Of a stretch of 64,000 nucleotides of DNA, positions 10,439 to 42,096 are shown piece after piece. The DNA comes from an uncultured Peptococcaceae bacterium (GTDB lineage: Bacteria; Bacillota; DSM-12270; Thermacetogeniales; Thermacetogeniaceae), in the NCBI GenBank assembly GCA_963768335.1, contig CAVYHR010000006.1:1-64000 (forward strand), written 5' to 3'. The notes below the pieces were generated by a model. That model worked only from the letters and a program-made list of their open reading frames with translations, did not search any database and was not told where the DNA came from. Positions within the stretch are counted from its first letter, which is position 1. Each line of letters opens with the position of its first letter. The translations under genes and the position numbers were made by a program.

Positions 10439-10840
10439 CCTGTAAAGTCTCGATGGGCGTCTGTACGGAATAAATCCCCATTTCTCGACCTCCTTGCCGG
10501 AAATAATCGAGCCGTACCAACTATGCGTTTGTCTATTAGGCTATTTCGCCATAATAGGAAAAACTCCTGCATGTTTTCCTGATAAATTCTATATTCTCAC
10601 ATTCTTACATTTCAATTATAGCAGCCGTACATCTGTTTGTCAAATACCCTTTTCACCTTCCGGCGACTGTCCGTTCATTCTCCGGCCAAGCCGATGGATT
10701 TCCTGGGCAATACAATTGCCTATCAAAAAGATATTTCATATAATTGAACGAGTGGATTGAGGTGATCAAACTCTTTCCTGTCAGATACGCGCAACCGCGC
10801 CCAGGGGACGCCCGCCTGGGAGAGAAACGGAGGGAGAACA

Positions 10841-27026: not shown

Positions 27027-27226
27027 TTACTCTTCCTCCTCTATATCTCTCCTATCGAATGAGTTTGGCGCCACTGATAACGACAAGCTTCTCAACCTTG
27101 AAAACAGACGCAACTGTGTCTCCAGGAAAAAACTAACCCCAGCCATGAAGGCTGAGGTTCGTAAACACGTGCTTACTGAATCCCACCCCCTATCGTTCGT
27201 AGGGTAACACGGCGCGACTGGAACAG

Positions 27227-27385
27227 GCAGGTCTCCTGGCTCGGGTTCTTCGCCTGACCTGCCCTTCCCTGAAACGCTGTGCGCTCAAGTGGTAATGCAG
27301 TAGGCTCCCCCTCACAGTGGCGGGACCGCACCTTTCACCCAGCGCTCTGCTTCAAACCAGGTCCCCCTCATTGCATTATGTCAAC
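27227..27385 (-). ncRNA. cobalamin (AdoCbl) riboswitch in the cbiMN leader
   Basis: Minus-strand reading: ...GGTGAAAGGTGCGGTCCCGCCACTGTGAGGGGGAGC... (B12 box GCCACTG at plus 27311-27329), then ...CAGGGAAGGGCAGG...CCCGAGCCAGGAGACCTGCC. TTGACA lies about 20 nt upstream (plus 27379-27384). About 200 nt before the cbiM ATG. Confidence 0.75.
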
Positions 27386-27651
27386 TACTGGCGCGCGGCC
27401 GGGTGACACTGACAGCAACGCGGCGTGGAGCCTGAATCGCTGGGCTTCGGACTTCCCTTTTCAGCCCGTATTTAACGGGCCACCTGTTCCCCTTACGATG
27501 AAATTATCAAAGAACTTTTTTCAGTCCCCTTTTGCACAGAGACTACCACAGTCTGACAACGCCAACAACCACTGCCAATCCATAAAGGATTCGCCGTCAA
27601 GTTACATTCTCCTTCATGAAAAACAAAAACCGATCTTTTTTTTCTCATTCC

Positions 27652-37256: not shown

Positions 37257-37679
37257 TCACTCGTGCCATGGATTATGAACAGAGGCCTGACAGCGCTCCA
37301 AGTCATGTGCATTTCGAGTTACAACAATCAGATTATGGGCAATTGCTGTAGCCGCAATCAGGCTATCGATTACTGGCAGTTTCAAGCCATTTTTTTCCGA
37401 AACGCCTAGAATCCTTCCCCAAGTGAATGCTACATCAAGATCAATTGGCAATATCCGACCCTCAAAGCGTTTGGCCAGATCCTGATCTACCCAGGCCTGC
37501 AGGTGTTCCGCCCGTTTTCCATCACTGAGTTTTTTAATGCCCTTTTGTATCTCGCCAAAAGTAACCACACTGAGAAATAGAGTTCCCTCGTCCCGCTCAT
37601 CAACCCAACGCACCACACTTGGATTCGGCTCTCTTTTGATCAGTTCCGAAACGACATTGGTGTCTAAAAGGTATTTCAC
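37257..37679 (-). CDS. vapC: PIN-domain toxin VapC (type II TA)
   Basis: MKYLLDTNVVSE...acidic PIN residues. 4-nt overlap with the upstream antitoxin. Confidence 0.85.
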   Translation of the reverse strand: MKYLLDTNVVSELIKREPNPSVVRWVDERDEGTLFLSVVTFGEIQKGIKKLSDGKRAEHLQAWVDQDLAKRFEGRILPIDLDVAFTWGRILGVSEKNGLKLPVIDSLIAATAIAHNLIVVTRNAHDLERCQASVHNPWHE

Positions 37680-37969
37680 AATTCCACCTCGCGGGATAAG
37701 TCTGCGCTTCTTTCCAGGTCAATCTCCACATCGCATAAGGGCGACTCCTTAAAAAAATCCGTTAACTTTGTTCGAGGCTGTGTAAGGCGCTGATACTCTT
37801 CAATCGACAAGATAATAGCAGCAGGTTTCCCCCTGACTGTGATAATTTGCGGCCCATCTTGGGCTGCTTGATTCACAAGTTGGCTGAGACGATTTTTTGC
37901 TTCTTGCAGTTGCCATTCCATGCTCATAGTTTTCGCCCCCAATAAGTCTAGACTGTCAAGATTTATCAA
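37676..37969 (-). CDS. Phd/YefM-family antitoxin
   Basis: MEWQLQEAKNRLSQLVNQAAQDGPQIITVRGKPAAIILSIEEYQRL (YefM fold). Likely start at the internal Met. Confidence 0.75.
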   Translation of the reverse strand: MINLDSLDLLGAKTMSMEWQLQEAKNRLSQLVNQAAQDGPQIITVRGKPAAIILSIEEYQRLTQPRTKLTDFFKESPLCDVEIDLERSADLSREVEL

Positions 37970-38165
37970 TCAAAACTGTCTTGTTTTGTAAATTCCAATT
38001 CAACCCCCTCCTGCTCCCTTTTGGCCACTCCTTTTCTCTTGTACCGGCTTCAACAAGCAATCTGCAAAACCATGGTTCGACATTTTTCAAGCAAAATATT
38101 TTTCCAGGTTGCCTTTTGCCAGTTGACGTAATATACTGATTCTGACAACTGAATATAACATTCCT

Positions 38166-38320
38166 TCGTTAGGTGAGGCTTCTGCGTAGACAGACGCCAC
38201 TGCCCGGAAACGTCGAAAGACGCCAAATGGGTCAACAGGTATTACCGGCTTAAGGTTCTACCTAATGTGGCTGAGGGACAATCTCTAAGCTGCGCACGTG
38301 TCAAAACTCGACGAGTGGGG
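38166..38320 (+). ncRNA. M-box (ykoK-type) Mg2+ riboswitch
   Basis: TTCGTTAGGTGAGGCTTCTGCGTAGACAGACGCCACTGCCCGGAAACGTCGAAAGACGCCAAATGGGTCAACAG... Near-identical to the B. subtilis mgtE leader core (TTCGTTAGGTGAGGCT...GACGCTAATGGGTCAACAG). Confidence 0.85.
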
Positions 38321-38347
38321 GGATGAGGTATTGGCATTTATGAGACT

Positions 38348-38377
38348 GAGTCTTCCCGCGGGGAGGACTTTTTTATT
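38348..38377 (+). terminator. intrinsic terminator (riboswitch expression platform)
   Basis: GAGTCTTCCCGCGGGGAGGAC hairpin followed by TTTTTTATT. Confidence 0.6.
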
Positions 38378-38767
38378 GGGTAAGGCCGGATTGCGGATGC
38401 AAAAGTTGTGAACTACCCCCACTTTAGAAATGGGAGCTTCCTGCTTCATCGACCATTGCCTTGGTATGCCAAGGTCTTACACGATCTCAATTCAGGCGTA
38501 ACTTCGGGCTGTTCCATCCCTAGTCTTTGGGGGGTCGAAACTTTTACCCCGGTAAGCATTTCTACCGGGAACCGCCTAGTTTCGGTTATCAAAGATCTGG
38601 TTATATTATAACTAACATACGTTCGGTATGTCAACAAGTTTTTCTAAGAATGGCGATTCATCCCTCACCTCAGAGGAGAGGGACTTCTCGCTGAATAATG
38701 TTAAAAAAAGTAATTCCAGGCAGGTTAATACAGGGGCGCCAGTCCCGCTGACCAAGGAGGGGAAGGC

Positions 38768-40061
38768 TATGAAAAAGATCACGTCACAGAGGGAATTCTT
38801 CCTCAGTCAGACACTCGGCAAGCCGATCTACGACCGGAACGGCAAGCTGGTCGGTCGCTTGCGGGACATGGCGGTACGCTGGGATAACCACTATCCCAGG
38901 GTGACGGGGATCAAGTTCGCCAAGGACGTCCAGAAGCACATCGGGATCAGCCAGATCGAACAATGGGACGAGCGAAGCATCCGGCTCAACGTGGCCTTCA
39001 CCGACGAGCTGCAACTCCTCACCGAAGAAGAGCTCTACGTCGGCAAGTGGCTGCTCGACAAGCAGATCATCGACACCAAGGGTTCCAAATTGGTGCGGGT
39101 CAACGATATCATGCTGGCCTGGATCGAGAGCGGCCCCGCCCACGACCTGATCCTGGTGGCGGTGGATGTGGGCGTGCGCGGCCTGTTGCGCCGCATCGGC
39201 GTGGAAAGCCTGGTCAGGGGACGGCCGCAGAATCTGGTGGACTGGAAGTACATCAAGCCGCCGGAGTCCAAGATGGACAACCTGCGCCTGACCCTGGAAC
39301 ACCCCTCGCTGAAAGACCTGCACCCGGCAGACCTGGCCGACATCATCGAGGATATGGACAGTGTCAGCCGAAGTCAACTGCTGGCAGGCCTCGACCGTCA
39401 GACTGCCATCGAGGCCCTGACCGAGGCCGATCTGGACACCCAGGTGGAGATCATCACCGACATGGACAGCACCAGCGCCTCCGAGATGCTGGCGGACATG
39501 CCGCCGGATGAGGCGGCGGACATCCTGGGCGAACTGACGGAGGAGAAGTCCAGCGAATTGTTGAACCTGATGGACAAGGATGAGGCGGAGGACGTCCGGG
39601 AACTGATGGAGTATGAGGAAAACACCGCCGGCGCCCTGATGACCACGGAGTTCATCTCCTTCCCGGCTGACACTACCGCCGAGGACTGCATCAACCGGCT
39701 GCGGGAGCTAGCGCCCTCGGCCGAGACGATCTTTTACCTCTACATTATCGACCACGCGGAAGTTCTCAAGGGAGTGGTAAGCTTGCGCGACCTGATCGTC
39801 GCCCAACCTCACACAGAGCTGGGCGCCATCATGCGCTCCCGTGTCGTTACCGTCCGGGGAGACGACAATATCAAGAGGGTGCAGGAAACGGTCGCCAAGT
39901 ACGACCTGCTGGCGCTGCCGGTGGTGGATGAACAGGGTGTGCTGCTGGGGATCATCACGGTGGACGATGTCATGGAGACGGTGTTCCCTGACCGCGGTGG
40001 GCTGGAGAGCTTCACCGACTTCATGACTCACAGCAAGTCCTGGAGGATGTGGAAACCGTGA
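38768..40061 (+). CDS. stand-alone MgtE N-terminal domain + CBS-pair cytoplasmic protein (no membrane domain)
   Basis: RBS AAGGAGG 8 nt before ATG at 38768. The track start at 38628 has no RBS. Acidic MgtE-N helical region (DLADIIEDMDS...EMLADMPPDEAADILGEL...) and two CBS motifs. Ends 13 nt inside the next gene. Confidence 0.8.
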
Positions 40062-41317
40062 AAGGGCTCAAGAGATTCAACCTGTTGTTACCGTCTCTGA
40101 TCCTCTTCCTGGCGATCATGGGTCCGGGGATCATCACCGCCAACGTGGACAACGACGCCGGCGGCATCACCACCTACTCGGTGGCCGGGGCGTCTTTCGG
40201 ATTGAAGCTGCTCTGGATCTTCATCCCGATGACCATCGCCCTGATCGTCGCCCAGGAAATGTGCGCCCGCATGGGCGCCGTCACCGGCAAGGGCCTGTCC
40301 GACCTGATCCGGGAGCGCTTCGGAGTCAAGGTGATCATGTTCGTGATGGCGGCCCTGTTGATAGCCGACCTGGGCAACACAGTGTCCGAGTTCGCCGGCG
40401 TGGCCGCCAGTGGAGAAATCTTCAACATCTCCAAATACATCATCGTGCCAATCGTTGCCTTCCTGGTCTGGTTTATTGTGATCAAGGGTTCCTACAAGAT
40501 GGTCGAGCGCGTTTTCCTGGTAGCCTCCGCCCTGTACCTGTGCTACATCCCCTCGGCGATCATGGCCAGGCCCAACTGGGGAGTCGTGTTCAAGGCAATG
40601 GTCGTGCCATCCTTCAGCTTCAGTCCGGTCTACCTGGCCATGCTGATCGGGCTGATCGGGACGACCATCACTCCCTGGATGCAGTTCTACATCCAGTCGG
40701 CAGTGGTGGAGAAGGGGATCACCGCCAAGGATTACGCATACTCCCGGACGGATGTGATCGTGGGCTGCTTTATGACCGACATCATCGCCTTGTTCATCGT
40801 GGTGGCCTGCGCCGCCACCCTGTTCCTACACAACATTCAAATTGCAACAGCCAAGGATGCGGCCATCTCCCTGCAGCCGCTGGCCGGCAGGTGGGCCGGC
40901 CTGCTGTTCGGCTTCGGCCTCTTCAACGCCTCGGTCTTCTCGGCCTCGATCCTGCCCCTGGCCACTTCGTACTATGTCTGTGAGGCGCTGGGTTTCGAGG
41001 CCGGCATCGACAAAACGTGGAGCGAGGCCCCGGTCTTCTACTGGCTGTACACCAGCCTGGTAGTCATCGGGGCGGGGCTGATCCTGATCCCGAACGCCCC
41101 GCTGATCGCCATCATGCTCTGGTCACAGGTGGCCAACGGGGTGCTGCTGCCCTTCATCCTGATCTTCATGCTGATCCTGATCAACAACAAGGATATCATG
41201 GGCCGGTTCACCAACTCCCGGAGTTTCGACGCCATCGCCTGGGCGACTACCGTCATCATGATCGCCCTGACCGTGCTGCTGGTGGTGATCTCCGTCTTCC
41301 CGAACCTGCTGGCCTGA
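40049..41317 (+). CDS. NRAMP-family transporter, probably the NRAMP-related Mg2+ transporter (NRMT) type given M-box control
   Basis: 11-12 TM NRAMP fold (GPGIITANVDNDAGGITTYS...). Translationally coupled to the MgtE-N/CBS gene. M-box upstream. Confidence 0.85.
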   Translation: METVKGLKRFNLLLPSLILFLAIMGPGIITANVDNDAGGITTYSVAGASFGLKLLWIFIPMTIALIVAQEMCARMGAVTGKGLSDLIRERFGVKVIMFVMAALLIADLGNTVSEFAGVAASGEIFNISKYIIVPIVAFLVWFIVIKGSYKMVERVFLVASALYLCYIPSAIMARPNWGVVFKAMVVPSFSFSPVYLAMLIGLIGTTITPWMQFYIQSAVVEKGITAKDYAYSRTDVIVGCFMTDIIALFIVVACAATLFLHNIQIATAKDAAISLQPLAGRWAGLLFGFGLFNASVFSASILPLATSYYVCEALGFEAGIDKTWSEAPVFYWLYTSLVVIGAGLILIPNAPLIAIMLWSQVANGVLLPFILIFMLILINNKDIMGRFTNSRSFDAIAWATTVIMIALTVLLVVISVFPNLLA

Positions 41318-41344
41318 CGCCGTTGGAAACCCGAATTTCCGTAG

Positions 41345-41373
41345 CCGCCGGGGTTGCCCCGGCGGCTTTTCGA
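41345..41373 (+). terminator. intrinsic terminator after the NRAMP gene
   Basis: GCCGCCGGGGTTGCCCCGGCGGC + TTTTCG. Confidence 0.6.
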
Positions 41374-41676
41374 TCCTCTCCGGATTTTCGGAACCGTTTC
41401 CGCTTTTTCGGTGCTTTTACTGTCTTTAACAGACACTACGCCGGCAGGACAACCCGGTTAACCGCGCTGTCTATGGCAACGGAGAAACCGAGGTACACCA
41501 CCGCCCCGGCAGCATCCGGCAGGCAGGCTGCTGAGCATCCGGCGGCTGCTGCCTACAACCGGAGCCGGTACCCGCCCGCCGGTTCCCGATTGTGGCATGA
41601 AATATGCATGTTTATATAGGCAGGAAAACAAAAACGAGGCCGCCGGAAGGGGCCGGAATGAGGGGAGAGGGCGAAC

Positions 41677-41850
41677 ATGGCAGTGGCACTGAGGACTTTC
41701 GAGGAGCTTGAGCATCGGGACGCAGAGGTGAAGAGGCCGGGATTGAAACTCGAAAAACGGGCCGAGACAGGCAGGGTAGAGTACGAATTCCCCTATGACG
41801 ACCTCTACCAGATGTACGACTACATCACCAAAGAACTGGGTATCAAGTAA
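41677..41850 (+). CDS. small hypothetical protein (57 aa), tandem paralogue 1
   Basis: RBS AGGGGAGAGGG then ATG. MAVALRTFEELEHRDAEVKRPGLKLEKRAETGRVEYEFPYDDLYQMYDYITKELGIK. Below the ORF-track cutoff. The whole unit, including the RBS, is tandemly duplicated. Confidence 0.5.
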   Translation: MAVALRTFEELEHRDAEVKRPGLKLEKRAETGRVEYEFPYDDLYQMYDYITKELGIK

Positions 41851-41922
41851 CAACAACCGGGTAGAGATCTTAAAAAAAACAGGCCGCCGGAAGCGGGGCC
41901 GGAATGAGGGGAGAGGGCGAAC

Positions 41923-42096
41923 ATGGCAGTGGCACTGAGGACTTTCGAGGAGCCTGAGCATCGGGACGCAGAGATCAAGATACCGGTTTGGACACAGCAA
42001 GAGCGGATCGAGAGAGGCAAACTCGAGTACGAATTCCCTTATGACGACCTCTACCAGATGTACGACTACATCACCCAAGAACTGGGCATCAGGTAG
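41923..42096 (+). CDS. small hypothetical protein (57 aa), tandem paralogue 2
   Basis: MAVALRTFEEPEHRDAEIKIPVWTQQERIERGKLEYEFPYDDLYQMYDYITQELGIR. Same RBS and leader as paralogue 1. Confidence 0.5.
   Translation: MAVALRTFEEPEHRDAEIKIPVWTQQERIERGKLEYEFPYDDLYQMYDYITQELGIR

What the first reader, a model, noticed from the sequence alone, without database searches (positions are those of the whole stretch)
38166..41317. M-box Mg2+ riboswitch controls a split MgtE-N/CBS sensor protein translationally coupled to an NRAMP-related transporter, with an unexplained ~390-nt downstream leader
The M-box core is near-identical to the B. subtilis mgtE leader and is followed by a terminator. M-box-regulated NRAMP-related proteins transport Mg2+ (NRMT, first found through exactly this riboswitch association). 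Here the cytoplasmic Mg2+-sensing module of MgtE (N-domain + CBS pair) is a separate polypeptide whose stop lies 13 nt inside the NRAMP gene. This suggests a hybrid channel regulated in trans. Between the riboswitch terminator (38377) and the RBS (38760) lie about 390 nt with several stable hairpins (CCTTGGTATGCCAAGG, GGGGTCGAAACTTTTACCCC) and no convincing ORF. This could be a second regulatory RNA or processing region.
Basis: partly seen in the sequence, partly recalled or inferred. Interest (0 to 1): 0.6.

Follow-up and report, generated by a model that had tools for sequence, protein, structure and literature searches.

The report
Known Mg operon; leader holds mini-transposon
This is an ordinary example of an already published magnesium-riboswitch operon (an MgtE-like cytoplasmic sensor protein plus an NRAMP-related Mg2+ transporter), and its puzzling long leader is explained by a 302-base gene-less remnant of an IS200/IS605 transposon inserted backwards.

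Summary
The sequence features are real. There is an M-box aptamer at 38158-38326 (142.8 bits) with a terminator at 38348-38376. A 430-aa soluble protein follows (38769-40061), then an NRMT-type NRAMP gene ending at 41317.

The pairing of an MgtE-like cytoplasmic protein with NrmT, often under an M-box, was already described by Shin et al. 2014 (PMC4072509). They also proposed regulation in trans. In 80 genomes surveyed here, 77 have NRMT directly downstream and 61 have an M-box upstream.

- The sensor has about 175 extra N-terminal residues that are beta-rich and PRC-barrel-like.
- The gene overlap is most likely 4 nt (GTGA at 40058-40061), not 13 nt.

The "unexplained 390-nt leader" is not a second riboswitch. 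All close relatives (79-97% identical protein) have leaders of 171-266 nt and lack about 302 nt (38408-38709). That segment matches the left and right ends of tnpA/tnpB-bearing IS200/IS605 elements. It lies on the minus strand and carries the element's own perfect sigma-70 promoter and a right-end fold like that expected of a TnpB guide RNA (omega-RNA), but no transposase.

Verdict: a known system with a mobile-element insertion. Interest is low.

The parts
38109..38137 (+). Probable operon promoter (TTGCCT-17-TATACT)
   Evidence: Consensus scan gives 9 of 12 matches. The block is conserved in relatives L001 and L005 and similar in L004. Function is inferred.
38158..38326 (+). M-box Mg2+ riboswitch aptamer
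   Evidence: Rfam RF00380, 142.8 bits, E 2.8e-32, full-length match. The same aptamer lies upstream of the orthologous gene in 61 of 80 surveyed genomes.
38348..38376 (+). Intrinsic terminator (riboswitch expression platform)
   Evidence: A 10-bp stem at 38348-38370, then TTTTTTATT. Conserved in all clade members.
38377..38407 (+). Native leader, conserved 5' block (GGCCGGATTGCGGATGCAAAAGTT)
   Evidence: Aligns to L001, L005, L006 and L008.
38408..38709 (-). Gene-less miniature IS200/IS605-family element (left end at the 38709 side, right end at the 38408 side). The left-end boundary is uncertain by about 6 nt.
   Evidence: Absent from all close relatives. Window 38603-38707 matches DNA just upstream of tnpB in plasmids L167 and L168 (73-84% identity, E 1e-5). 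Window 38407-38522 matches DNA just downstream of tnpB in phage record L169 (71%, E 3e-7). Pfam confirms Y1_Tnp and OrfB_IS605/Cas12f1-like_TNB in those elements. No tnpA or tnpB is present in the window.
38408..38535 (-). Right end of the element, with a conserved fold like that expected of a TnpB guide RNA (omega-RNA).
   Evidence: The motif GAAGCAGGAAGCTCC-N(14-22)-TAGTTCAC occurs in 16 viral contigs. In 7 of them a TnpB match ends about 110 nt upstream on the same strand. RNAalifold on 16 sequences predicts 24 pairs, 9 of them with compensatory changes, and the window copy fits. The omega-RNA label is inferred from position and conserved fold only.
38605..38634 (-). The element's own promoter, a perfect TTGACA-18-TATAAT, pointing towards the M-box
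   Evidence: 12 of 12 matches. Only 2 perfect matches occur in 64 kb, against 0 in 100 shuffles. The -10 box aligns in all four left ends, and in L167 it precedes the RBS and ATG of tnpB.
38661..38683 (-). Subterminal left-end hairpin (TCCCTCACCTC / GAGGAGAGGGA)
   Evidence: Inverted repeat I1. The same hairpin sits at the same place in L167, L168 and L169, with a different stem sequence in each.
38710..38768 (+). Native leader, conserved 3' block: small hairpin GGGGC-GCCA-GTCCC (38733-38746) and Shine-Dalgarno AAGGAGGGG (38754-38762)
   Evidence: Nearly invariant in L001, L005, L006 and L008; the hairpin is kept with a different sequence in L003/L009, L011 and L004/L010.
38769..40061 (+). Soluble sensor protein, 430 aa: beta-rich PRC-barrel-like N-terminal region (1-175), MgtE N-domain (184-285), CBS pair (about 290-405), C-terminal tail
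   Evidence: Pfam. PDB sequence match to the MgtE cytosolic domain 2yvy, 1.7e-40 over residues 180-405. AF2 model, mean pLDDT 77.9. Foldseek against MgtE cytosolic domains gives TM (target-normalised) 0.83-0.91 for the soluble-domain entries and E about 1e-21. The search returned 7,708 homologs; the 120 listed are almost all about 430 aa.
40058..41317 (+). NRMT-type NRAMP transporter. The start is probably GTG 40058 (GTGA overlap); the alternative is GTG 40049.
   Evidence: Pfam Nramp 1.1e-98. EleNRMT 7qia 1.9e-108 versus MntH 5.8e-26 or weaker. DAGG and TTIT motifs are present. Junction conservation.
41343..41370 (+). Probable operon terminator (AGCCGCCGGGG-TTG-CCCCGGCGGCT, then TTTT)
   Evidence: Read directly from the sequence. 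It was not flagged by the scan because the T-run is short. Inferred.

Best explanation
This is a two-gene Mg2+ uptake operon of a peat-bog Thermacetogeniaceae/Peptococcaceae bacterium. It belongs to the M-box / MgtE-like protein / NrmT type described in 2014.

Proposed mechanism:
1. At high cytoplasmic Mg2+ the M-box aptamer (38158-38326) compacts. The terminator (38348-38376) then forms and transcription stops.
2. At low Mg2+ the polymerase reads through.
3. The mRNA encodes a soluble protein with two beta-rich PRC-barrel-like modules, an MgtE N-domain and a CBS pair. This protein keeps the acidic residues that bind regulatory Mg2+ in MgtE.
4. Through a GTGA stop/start overlap, the mRNA also encodes an NRMT transporter with the Mg2+-type binding site (DxxG / TxxT).
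5. The soluble protein most likely adds a second, protein-level Mg2+ feedback on the transporter. This step is inferred and was already proposed by Shin et al.

The unusually long leader has a simple cause. A 302-nt non-autonomous derivative of an IS200/IS605 element (left end plus right end, no tnpA or tnpB) sits on the opposite strand at 38408-38709. It lies in a stretch of the leader that is already hypervariable among relatives. It is most likely a tolerated, strain-specific insertion. The mRNA simply carries its antisense sequence between the terminator and the conserved pre-Shine-Dalgarno block.
For: Shown here:
- M-box and terminator.
- NRMT identity: EleNRMT 366 bits versus MntH 95 bits or less. 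D36/G39, T205/T208, W210 and Q360 align to EleNRMT D55/G58, T224/A227, W229 and Q379.
- The sensor matches the MgtE cytosolic domain by sequence and by fold.
- Window residues E215, D247, D251, D379, D400 and E403 align to T. thermophilus MgtE E59, D91, D95, D226, D247 and D250. These are ligands of Mg2+ sites Mg7, Mg4, Mg6 and Mg5 in PMC5882242. The 3-residue offset was checked on I28, I84 and I242.
- D247, D251 and D400 are invariant in 62 family members.
- The architecture is conserved: 77 of 80 genomes have NRMT directly downstream and 61 of 80 have an M-box upstream.
- Prior description in PMC4072509.

Insertion:
- Relatives at 79-97% protein identity have 171-266 nt between aptamer end and start codon, against 442 nt here. 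The flanks align and 38408-38709 is missing.
- Left-end and right-end homology to elements that carry tnpA/tnpB, in the correct relative order and orientation.
- The right-end motif recurs in 16 viral contigs, with TnpB upstream in 7.
- The right-end structure is conserved with covariation.
- The perfect promoter corresponds to the tnpB promoter of L167.
Against: - No experiment links the sensor to the transporter. In Shin et al., co-expressing the A. capsulatum pair did not improve rescue, and that NrmT behaved as a Mn2+ transporter. EleNRMT also transports Mn2+. Mg2+ as the substrate is therefore inferred from the M-box and the motif.
- The similarities to IS ends are moderate (71-84% over 60-130 nt). 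No full-length copy with both ends close to this one was found.
- The left-end boundary and the target motif are uncertain.
- The window also lacks the 65-110-nt 'central piece' that relatives carry at this site. A deletion must therefore have occurred as well as the insertion.
- 'Neutral insertion' is an assumption. The element's strong promoter fires towards the riboswitch and could matter.
Confidence: 0.85

Rival explanations
1. The 390-nt spacer is a second cis-regulatory RNA (a tandem riboswitch, a processing site or a stability element) that belongs to the operon.
For: Local hairpins exist. A short conserved hairpin and a Shine-Dalgarno block lie just upstream of the start (38710-38768). 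In relatives a CCUCCG in the central piece is predicted to pair with the Shine-Dalgarno sequence.
Against: No Rfam family matches even at E up to 10. The folding z-score is -0.78. About 77% of the spacer (302 of 392 nt) is absent from all close relatives and is IS-derived. The predicted anti-Shine-Dalgarno segment of relatives is exactly the part missing here.
Confidence: 0.04
2. The mini-IS has been co-opted. Its consensus promoter would drive an antisense RNA across the terminator, M-box and operon promoter. Alternatively it would drive a guide RNA whose guide is the adjacent leader DNA. Either would add Mg2+-independent control of the operon.
For: There is a perfect -35/-10 on the minus strand, with 0 expected by chance. 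The conserved right-end fold downstream of it is intact. No minus-strand terminator-like site was found between it and the M-box.
Against: The insertion is found in only one strain-level lineage, so there is no sign of selection. No TnpB is present in the 64-kb window. The promoter is simply the ancestral tnpB promoter.
Confidence: 0.08
3. The MgtE-N/CBS ORF is the 5' part of a decayed full-length mgtE and the pairing with NRAMP is accidental.
For: The NCBIfam mgtE model matches only positions 27-251 of 450 and scores below its cutoff (192.9 versus 232.75).
Against: The 120 best homologs are almost all about 430 aa, and many are annotated independently. NRMT lies directly downstream in 77 of 80 genomes from several phyla. 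The overlapping stop/start is conserved. No MgtE membrane domain follows.
Confidence: 0.01

Closest known systems
M-box-regulated NrmT operons with the MgtE-like ancillary gene (Shin et al. 2014, PLoS Genet, PMC4072509; e.g. C. acetobutylicum Ca_c0685)
   Same: M-box aptamer with terminator, a gene homologous to the MgtE cytoplasmic domain, then a co-transcribed NRAMP-related transporter. The same hypothesis of cytoplasmic feedback applies.
   Different: Here the ancillary protein is a single 430-aa gene with an additional PRC-barrel-like N-terminal region; in Ca_c0685 it is split into two genes. The leader carries a mini-IS insertion. The host is an uncultured peat Thermacetogeniaceae/Peptococcaceae bacterium.
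EleNRMT of Eggerthella lenta (PDB 7qia; Ramanadane et al. 2022, PMC8806188)
   Same: Aligns over residues 17-416 at 366 bits. Shares the DxxG motif on helix 1, T-x-x-A/T on helix 6, Trp in place of the first helix-6b His, and the conserved Gln on helix 10.
   Different: T208 here where EleNRMT has A227; both are allowed by the NRMT signature. Transport was not tested here. The partner protein was not part of that study.
MgtE cytosolic domain (T. thermophilus 2yvy/2yvx; Mg2+-dependent gating)
   Same: N-domain plus CBS pair, with the ligands of sites Mg4 to Mg7 conserved. The fold matches soluble-domain entries at target-normalised TM 0.83-0.91.
   Different: No plug helix or membrane pore. There are an extra 175 N-terminal residues and a free C-terminal tail (406-430, low confidence in the model). 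It is a separate polypeptide.
IS200/IS605-family elements with TnpA (Y1) and TnpB, and their gene-less miniature derivatives
   Same: Left end with promoter and subterminal hairpin. Right end with a conserved structured region ending in a fixed terminal motif (GTAGTTCAC). Presence or absence varies between strains.
   Different: No tnpA or tnpB. Only about 75 nt lie between the promoter and the right-end scaffold. The exact target motif is undetermined (TTAC is possible). The name 'mini-IS/PATE' comes from my own knowledge of the field and was not checked against an IS database.

Membership tests
M-box riboswitch (Rfam RF00380) | Covariance-model match above the gathering score over the full aptamer | tested here: met
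   142.8 bits against 44, model positions 1-169 of 169.
M-box riboswitch (Rfam RF00380) | Expression platform: an intrinsic terminator directly downstream | tested here: met
   A 10-bp stem plus T-run at 38348-38376, conserved in relatives.
M-box riboswitch (Rfam RF00380) | Mg2+-dependent compaction and repression | not testable with these tools
   Needs in vitro or reporter assays.
NRMT clade of SLC11/NRAMP | Binding-site signature DxxG (helix 1) and TxxA/T (helix 6) instead of DxxN and AxxM | tested here: met
   D36-A-G-G39 and T205-T-I-T208 align with EleNRMT D55/G58 and T224/A227. The signature is as stated in PMC8806188.
NRMT clade of SLC11/NRAMP | Closer to a characterised NRMT than to MntH or NRAMP | tested here: met
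   7qia 366 bits, E 1.9e-108; best MntH 94.7 bits. The NCBIfam MntH model scores 121.5, below its cutoff of 430. No tree was built.
NRMT clade of SLC11/NRAMP | Transports Mg2+ | not testable with these tools
   Inferred from the M-box and the motif. Some members of the group transport Mn2+.
MgtE-like ancillary protein of NrmT loci (Shin et al. 2014) | Homologous to the MgtE N-terminal cytoplasmic domain, lacks the membrane domain, and is encoded next to nrmT | tested here: met
   NRMT is directly downstream here and in 77 of 80 genomes.
MgtE Mg2+ channel (TIGR00400) | C-terminal five-helix membrane pore domain; score above the equivalog cutoff | tested here: not met
   192.9 bits, below the cutoff of 232.75. 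Only profile positions 27-251 of 450 are matched. The protein ends at residue 430 with no membrane segment.
IS200/IS605-family element | Ends homologous to the left and right ends of elements encoding the Y1 transposase and/or TnpB, in the right order and orientation | tested here: met
IS200/IS605-family element | Subterminal imperfect hairpins at both ends | tested here: met
   Left-end hairpin at 38661-38683. Right-end terminal hairpin with compensatory changes.
IS200/IS605-family element | Encodes tnpA and/or tnpB | tested here: not met
   No ORF in the element is conserved in relatives and none matches TnpA or TnpB. No TnpA or TnpB match anywhere in the window. It is therefore a non-autonomous derivative, not a complete IS.
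IS200/IS605-family element | Insertion next to a specific 4-5-nt target without target duplication; empty sites in relatives | tested here: inconclusive
   Empty sites exist. TTAC abuts the left end on the element strand. However, the left-end boundary is uncertain by about 6 nt, and the site also differs from relatives by a deletion.

The most novel reading that the evidence does not exclude
The gene-less mini-IS keeps a consensus promoter and an intact right-end fold resembling a TnpB guide RNA, aimed at the riboswitch. Its transcript would be antisense to the M-box and terminator. It would also carry, as its guide, the adjacent leader DNA (minus strand, AACTTTTGCATCCGCAATCC...). If a TnpB or a nuclease-dead TnpB derivative is encoded elsewhere in this genome, the Mg2+ transport operon could be under RNA-guided or antisense control layered on the riboswitch.
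Probability: 0.06. Interest if true: 0.6.

Novelty: new member of a known kind. Interest (0 to 1): 0.2.

Why it matters
It matters little as a discovery. The operon type and the hypothesis of trans-regulation were published in 2014, and the long leader is a transposon remnant.

It is useful in three practical ways:
- A long, hairpin-rich stretch after a riboswitch may be a mini-IS, so strain-level comparison should come before calling a second regulatory RNA.
- The survey shows how tightly the sensor gene is linked to NRMT (77 of 80 genomes).
- The sensor-transporter interaction is still untested. This pair and its many orthologs are suitable material for that experiment.

Tried and rejected
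- Rfam at E up to 10 on 38300-38800: only a spurious lncRNA hit.
- Folding the whole spacer: not more stable than shuffles.
- ORFs of 20 aa or more in the spacer: none is conserved. The in-frame upstream ATG at 38628 lies inside the insertion. Homologs start at the ATG at 38769.
- Other copies of the spacer in the window: none. Other copies in the 169 loci fetched by then: only the IS ends.
- Exact 30-mer of the insertion in metagenome contigs: 0 hits.
- Terminal inverted repeats or target duplication of a classical MITE: none found.
- I briefly read the minus-strand promoter plus 'GATCTTTGATAAC' as an rRNA-operon promoter and leader. I dropped this once the plasmid and phage hits placed the sequence next to tnpB.
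- The short 'MDSGP' upstream ORF found in other lineages was looked for in the window clade: absent.
- Pairing of the native 5' and 3' leader blocks (one G:C to A:U co-change between the window/L001 and L005/L006): too few sequences to judge. RNAalifold did not predict it.
- Frameshifted mgtE: rejected.
Full report
**1. Observation**

Rfam places a full-length M-box aptamer at 38158-38326 on the + strand (142.8 bits, E 2.8e-32). A terminator-like hairpin at 38348-38370 with a T-run follows it. A promoter-like TTGCCT-17-TATACT at 38109-38137 precedes it and is conserved in relatives.

The first gene runs from ATG 38769 to the stop at 40061 (430 aa). Pfam finds MgtE_N (residues 184-285, 1e-25), two CBS domains (2.1e-20) and a weak PRC-barrel hit at residues 9-43. 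The second gene is an Nramp-family protein ending at 41317 (1.1e-98). A GC-rich hairpin with TTTT at 41343-41370 probably ends the operon.

As a whole, though, the stretch folds no better than shuffled sequence (z = -0.78). It has no Rfam match at E up to 10.

**2. The two proteins**

*Transporter.* Its best solved relative is EleNRMT (7qia), at 366 bits and E 1.9e-108 over residues 17-416. Every MntH or NRAMP structure scores 95 bits or less. Ramanadane et al. define NRMTs by DxxG on helix 1 and TxxA/T on helix 6 (PMC8806188).

This protein has D36-A-G-G39 and T205-T-I-T208. It also has W210 and Q360 aligned to EleNRMT W229 and Q379 (numbering from GTG 40049). It therefore belongs to the NRMT type and not the MntH type. 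The substrate (Mg2+) remains an inference. EleNRMT also carries Mn2+, and one NrmT-group protein behaved as a Mn2+ transporter.

*Upstream protein.* It matches the MgtE cytosolic domain by sequence (2yvy, 1.7e-40, residues 180-405). It also matches by fold: the AF2 model has mean pLDDT 77.9, and Foldseek gives E about 1e-21 with target-normalised TM 0.83-0.91 against soluble-domain entries. It fails the full-length mgtE equivalog model (192.9 bits against a cutoff of 232.75, profile positions 27-251 of 450) and has no membrane segment.

Residues 5-133 are two blocks of beta strands, which fits two PRC-barrel-like modules. Only the first block has a Pfam hit.

I used the alignment with a 3-residue numbering offset, checked on I28, I84 and I242. 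Window residues E215, D247, D251, D379, D400 and E403 then align with the T. thermophilus MgtE residues E59, D91, D95, D226, D247 and D250. Maruyama et al. assign those to regulatory sites Mg7, Mg4, Mg6 and Mg5 (PMC5882242). D247, D251 and D400 are invariant in 62 family members. The protein therefore plausibly still senses Mg2+.

The GTG at 40058 overlaps the stop as GTGA. That arrangement is conserved in window, L005, L006, L001, L008, L011 and L010, and it becomes ATGA in L009. GGAGG lies 11 nt upstream. A 4-nt overlap is the better call. Translational coupling is likely either way.

**3. Is the arrangement new?**

No. Shin et al. [quoted passage not shown] They noted that many of these are M-box-regulated and co-transcribed. 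They also speculated that the fragment provides cytoplasmic feedback regulation or chaperone activity. Literature searches found no later work on the partner protein.

My survey agrees with theirs. The search for sensor homologs returned 7,708 proteins, and the 120 listed are almost all about 430 aa. Among 80 loci from GTDB species genomes (42-95% identity), 77 have an NRMT gene immediately downstream and 61 have an M-box upstream.

**4. The leader**

The distance from aptamer end to start codon is 442 nt here. In other loci it clusters at 91-99 nt and at about 170-266 nt. The next longest are 311 and 358 nt, apart from L024 at 1175 nt.

The closest relatives show the following:

| Loci | Protein identity | Distance (nt) |
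|---|---|---|
| L005, L007, L087, L092 | 95-97% | 244 |
| L006 | 93% | 244 |
| L001, L088 | 91% | 197 |
| L008, L089 | 91% | 210 |
| L004, L010 | 82% | 266 |
| L003, L009, L011, L091 | 79-81% | 171 |

The flanks align well. On the 5' side the block is GGCCGGATTGCGGATGCAAAAGTT. On the 3' side it is GTAATTCCAGGCAGGTTAATAC...GGGGCGCCAGTCCCGCTGA..AAGGAGGGG-ATG. The window's 38408-38709 has no counterpart in any relative. Conversely, the relatives' 65-110-nt central piece is missing from the window.

**5. What the extra DNA is**

A sensitive BLAST of 38395-38710 against annotated plasmids and phages gave two sets of hits.

- *Left end.* Window 38603-38707 matches (73-84%, E 1e-5) DNA immediately upstream of the start of tnpB in Paenibacillus polymyxa pPPM1a (L167) and in an Aneurinibacillus plasmid (L168).
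- *Right end.* Window 38407-38522 matches (71%, E 3e-7) DNA immediately downstream of the stop of tnpB in a tnpA-tnpB element of phage record MT835474 (L169).

Pfam confirms Y1_Tnp and HTH_OrfB_IS605/OrfB_IS605/Cas12f1-like_TNB in those ORFs. The two matches have the order and orientation expected for one element lying on the minus strand, with its left end at the 38709 side and its right end at the 38408 side. L169's own left end shows the same -10 box and the same subterminal hairpin with a different stem sequence.

The perfect minus-strand promoter TTGACA-18-TATAAT (38634..38605) is one of only two perfect matches in 64 kb, with none in 100 shuffles. It aligns with the promoter that precedes the RBS and ATG of tnpB in L167.

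The right-end motif GAAGCAGGAAGCTCC-N(14-22)-TAGTTCAC occurs in 16 viral contigs. In 7 of them a TnpB match ends about 110 nt upstream on the same strand. In all 16, similarity stops right after GTAGTTCAC, which fixes the window's right-end boundary at 38408. RNAalifold on 16 right ends predicts 24 pairs, 9 with compensatory changes, and the window copy conforms. The position and conserved fold resemble what is expected of a TnpB guide RNA (omega-RNA) scaffold. That label is an inference from my own knowledge and was not checked against any omega-RNA model or paper.

GGGGTCGAAACTTTTACCCC also lies inside the element. The window has no tnpA or tnpB and no second copy of the element.

The segment is therefore a non-autonomous miniature IS200/IS605 derivative of about 302 nt. 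On the element strand the left end is preceded by TTAC, a known IS608-type target (from my own knowledge). The left-end boundary is uncertain by about 6 nt.

**6. How the locus most likely works**

Shown here:
- the parts and their family assignments;
- conservation of the gene pair;
- the strain-specific nature of the insertion.

Inferred from family knowledge:
- High Mg2+ stabilises the aptamer so that the terminator forms. Low Mg2+ allows read-through.
- The two genes are translated in a coupled way.
- NRMT imports Mg2+.
- The soluble sensor binds Mg2+ and down-regulates or otherwise modulates NRMT.

The insertion lies between the terminator and the conserved pre-Shine-Dalgarno block. No + strand terminator or promoter was detected inside it, and both genes are intact. 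The simplest reading is a tolerated insertion.

Its outward-facing strong promoter could produce antisense RNA across the riboswitch. This is possible but unsupported, and I give it a probability below 0.1.

**7. Verdict**

The finding is real but ordinary. It is a new member of a published operon type, and its one puzzling feature is explained by a mobile-element remnant. Interest 0.2.

Noticed in passing
Related loci L020-L086 (e.g. L045:2870-3004, L053:2846-2980, L031:2878-3004), between the M-box terminator and the sensor gene: Many Negativicutes and Desulfitobacteriaceae relatives carry a conserved short upstream ORF. It has the Shine-Dalgarno AGGAGGTGG and a start codon of ATG (29), GTG (5) or TTG (1), and it begins M-D-S-G-P with third-base wobble. 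The remaining 25-40 codons are variable, and it often ends as TAAATG at the sensor start. Its first codons pair with a site about 37-45 nt upstream of the sensor ATG (duplex z below -2 in 25 of 35 loci). It is not in Rfam, was not found in literature searches, and is absent from the window's clade. It could be a second, translational control layer in those lineages.
   Followed up: partly
L031, L033, L039, L042 (Pelosinus); L093: Two M-box aptamers lie upstream of the sensor-NRMT operon. They are about 310 nt apart in the Pelosinus loci and about 770 nt apart in L093.
   Followed up: no
L099:449-543: A NiCo (Ni/Co) riboswitch lies about 1 kb upstream of a distant (38% identity) homolog of the sensor gene. 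This hints that some members of this protein family serve other metals.
   Followed up: no
L013 and L077: Sensor homologs (62% and 54% identity) with no NRMT gene within about 3 kb downstream and no M-box detected upstream. In L077 only about 60 nt of upstream sequence is available.
   Followed up: partly
L004/L010 (contig_12227): 5225-6450 of L004: The NRMT gene is called as two ORFs (170 and 251 aa), and the sensor gene is called with a truncated start. This may be a frameshift, a pseudogene or an assembly error in that MAG.
   Followed up: no
L024: The M-box lies 1175 nt upstream of the sensor start, so another gene may sit between them.
   Followed up: no
window 41649-41849 and 41895-42095 (+): A tandem 246-nt-spaced duplication (88% identity). 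Each copy encodes a 57-aa ORF (41677-41850, 41923-42096) with no Pfam match. A single 57-aa gene sits at the same place in L001 and L002.
   Followed up: partly
window 37257-37969 (-): A Phd/YefM antitoxin plus PIN (VapC-type) toxin pair lies divergent from the M-box promoter. The toxin-antitoxin content at this spot differs between relatives (MazE-type in L001, Phd-PIN in L005).
   Followed up: partly
window 27209-27502 (-): A cobalamin riboswitch (RF00174, 83.5 bits) with a large insertion in a variable loop.
   Followed up: no
window 10615-10643 (-): The only other perfect TTGACA-N17-TATAAT promoter match in the 64-kb window.
   Followed up: no
window 38769-39293 (sensor residues 1-175): The N-terminal region of the 'MgtE-like fragment' is beta-rich and PRC-barrel-like, probably two barrels. 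It has invariant residues (e.g. W38, P43, W94, D97, K98, Q99, R110, N112, D113). It may be the module that docks on the transporter.
   Followed up: partly
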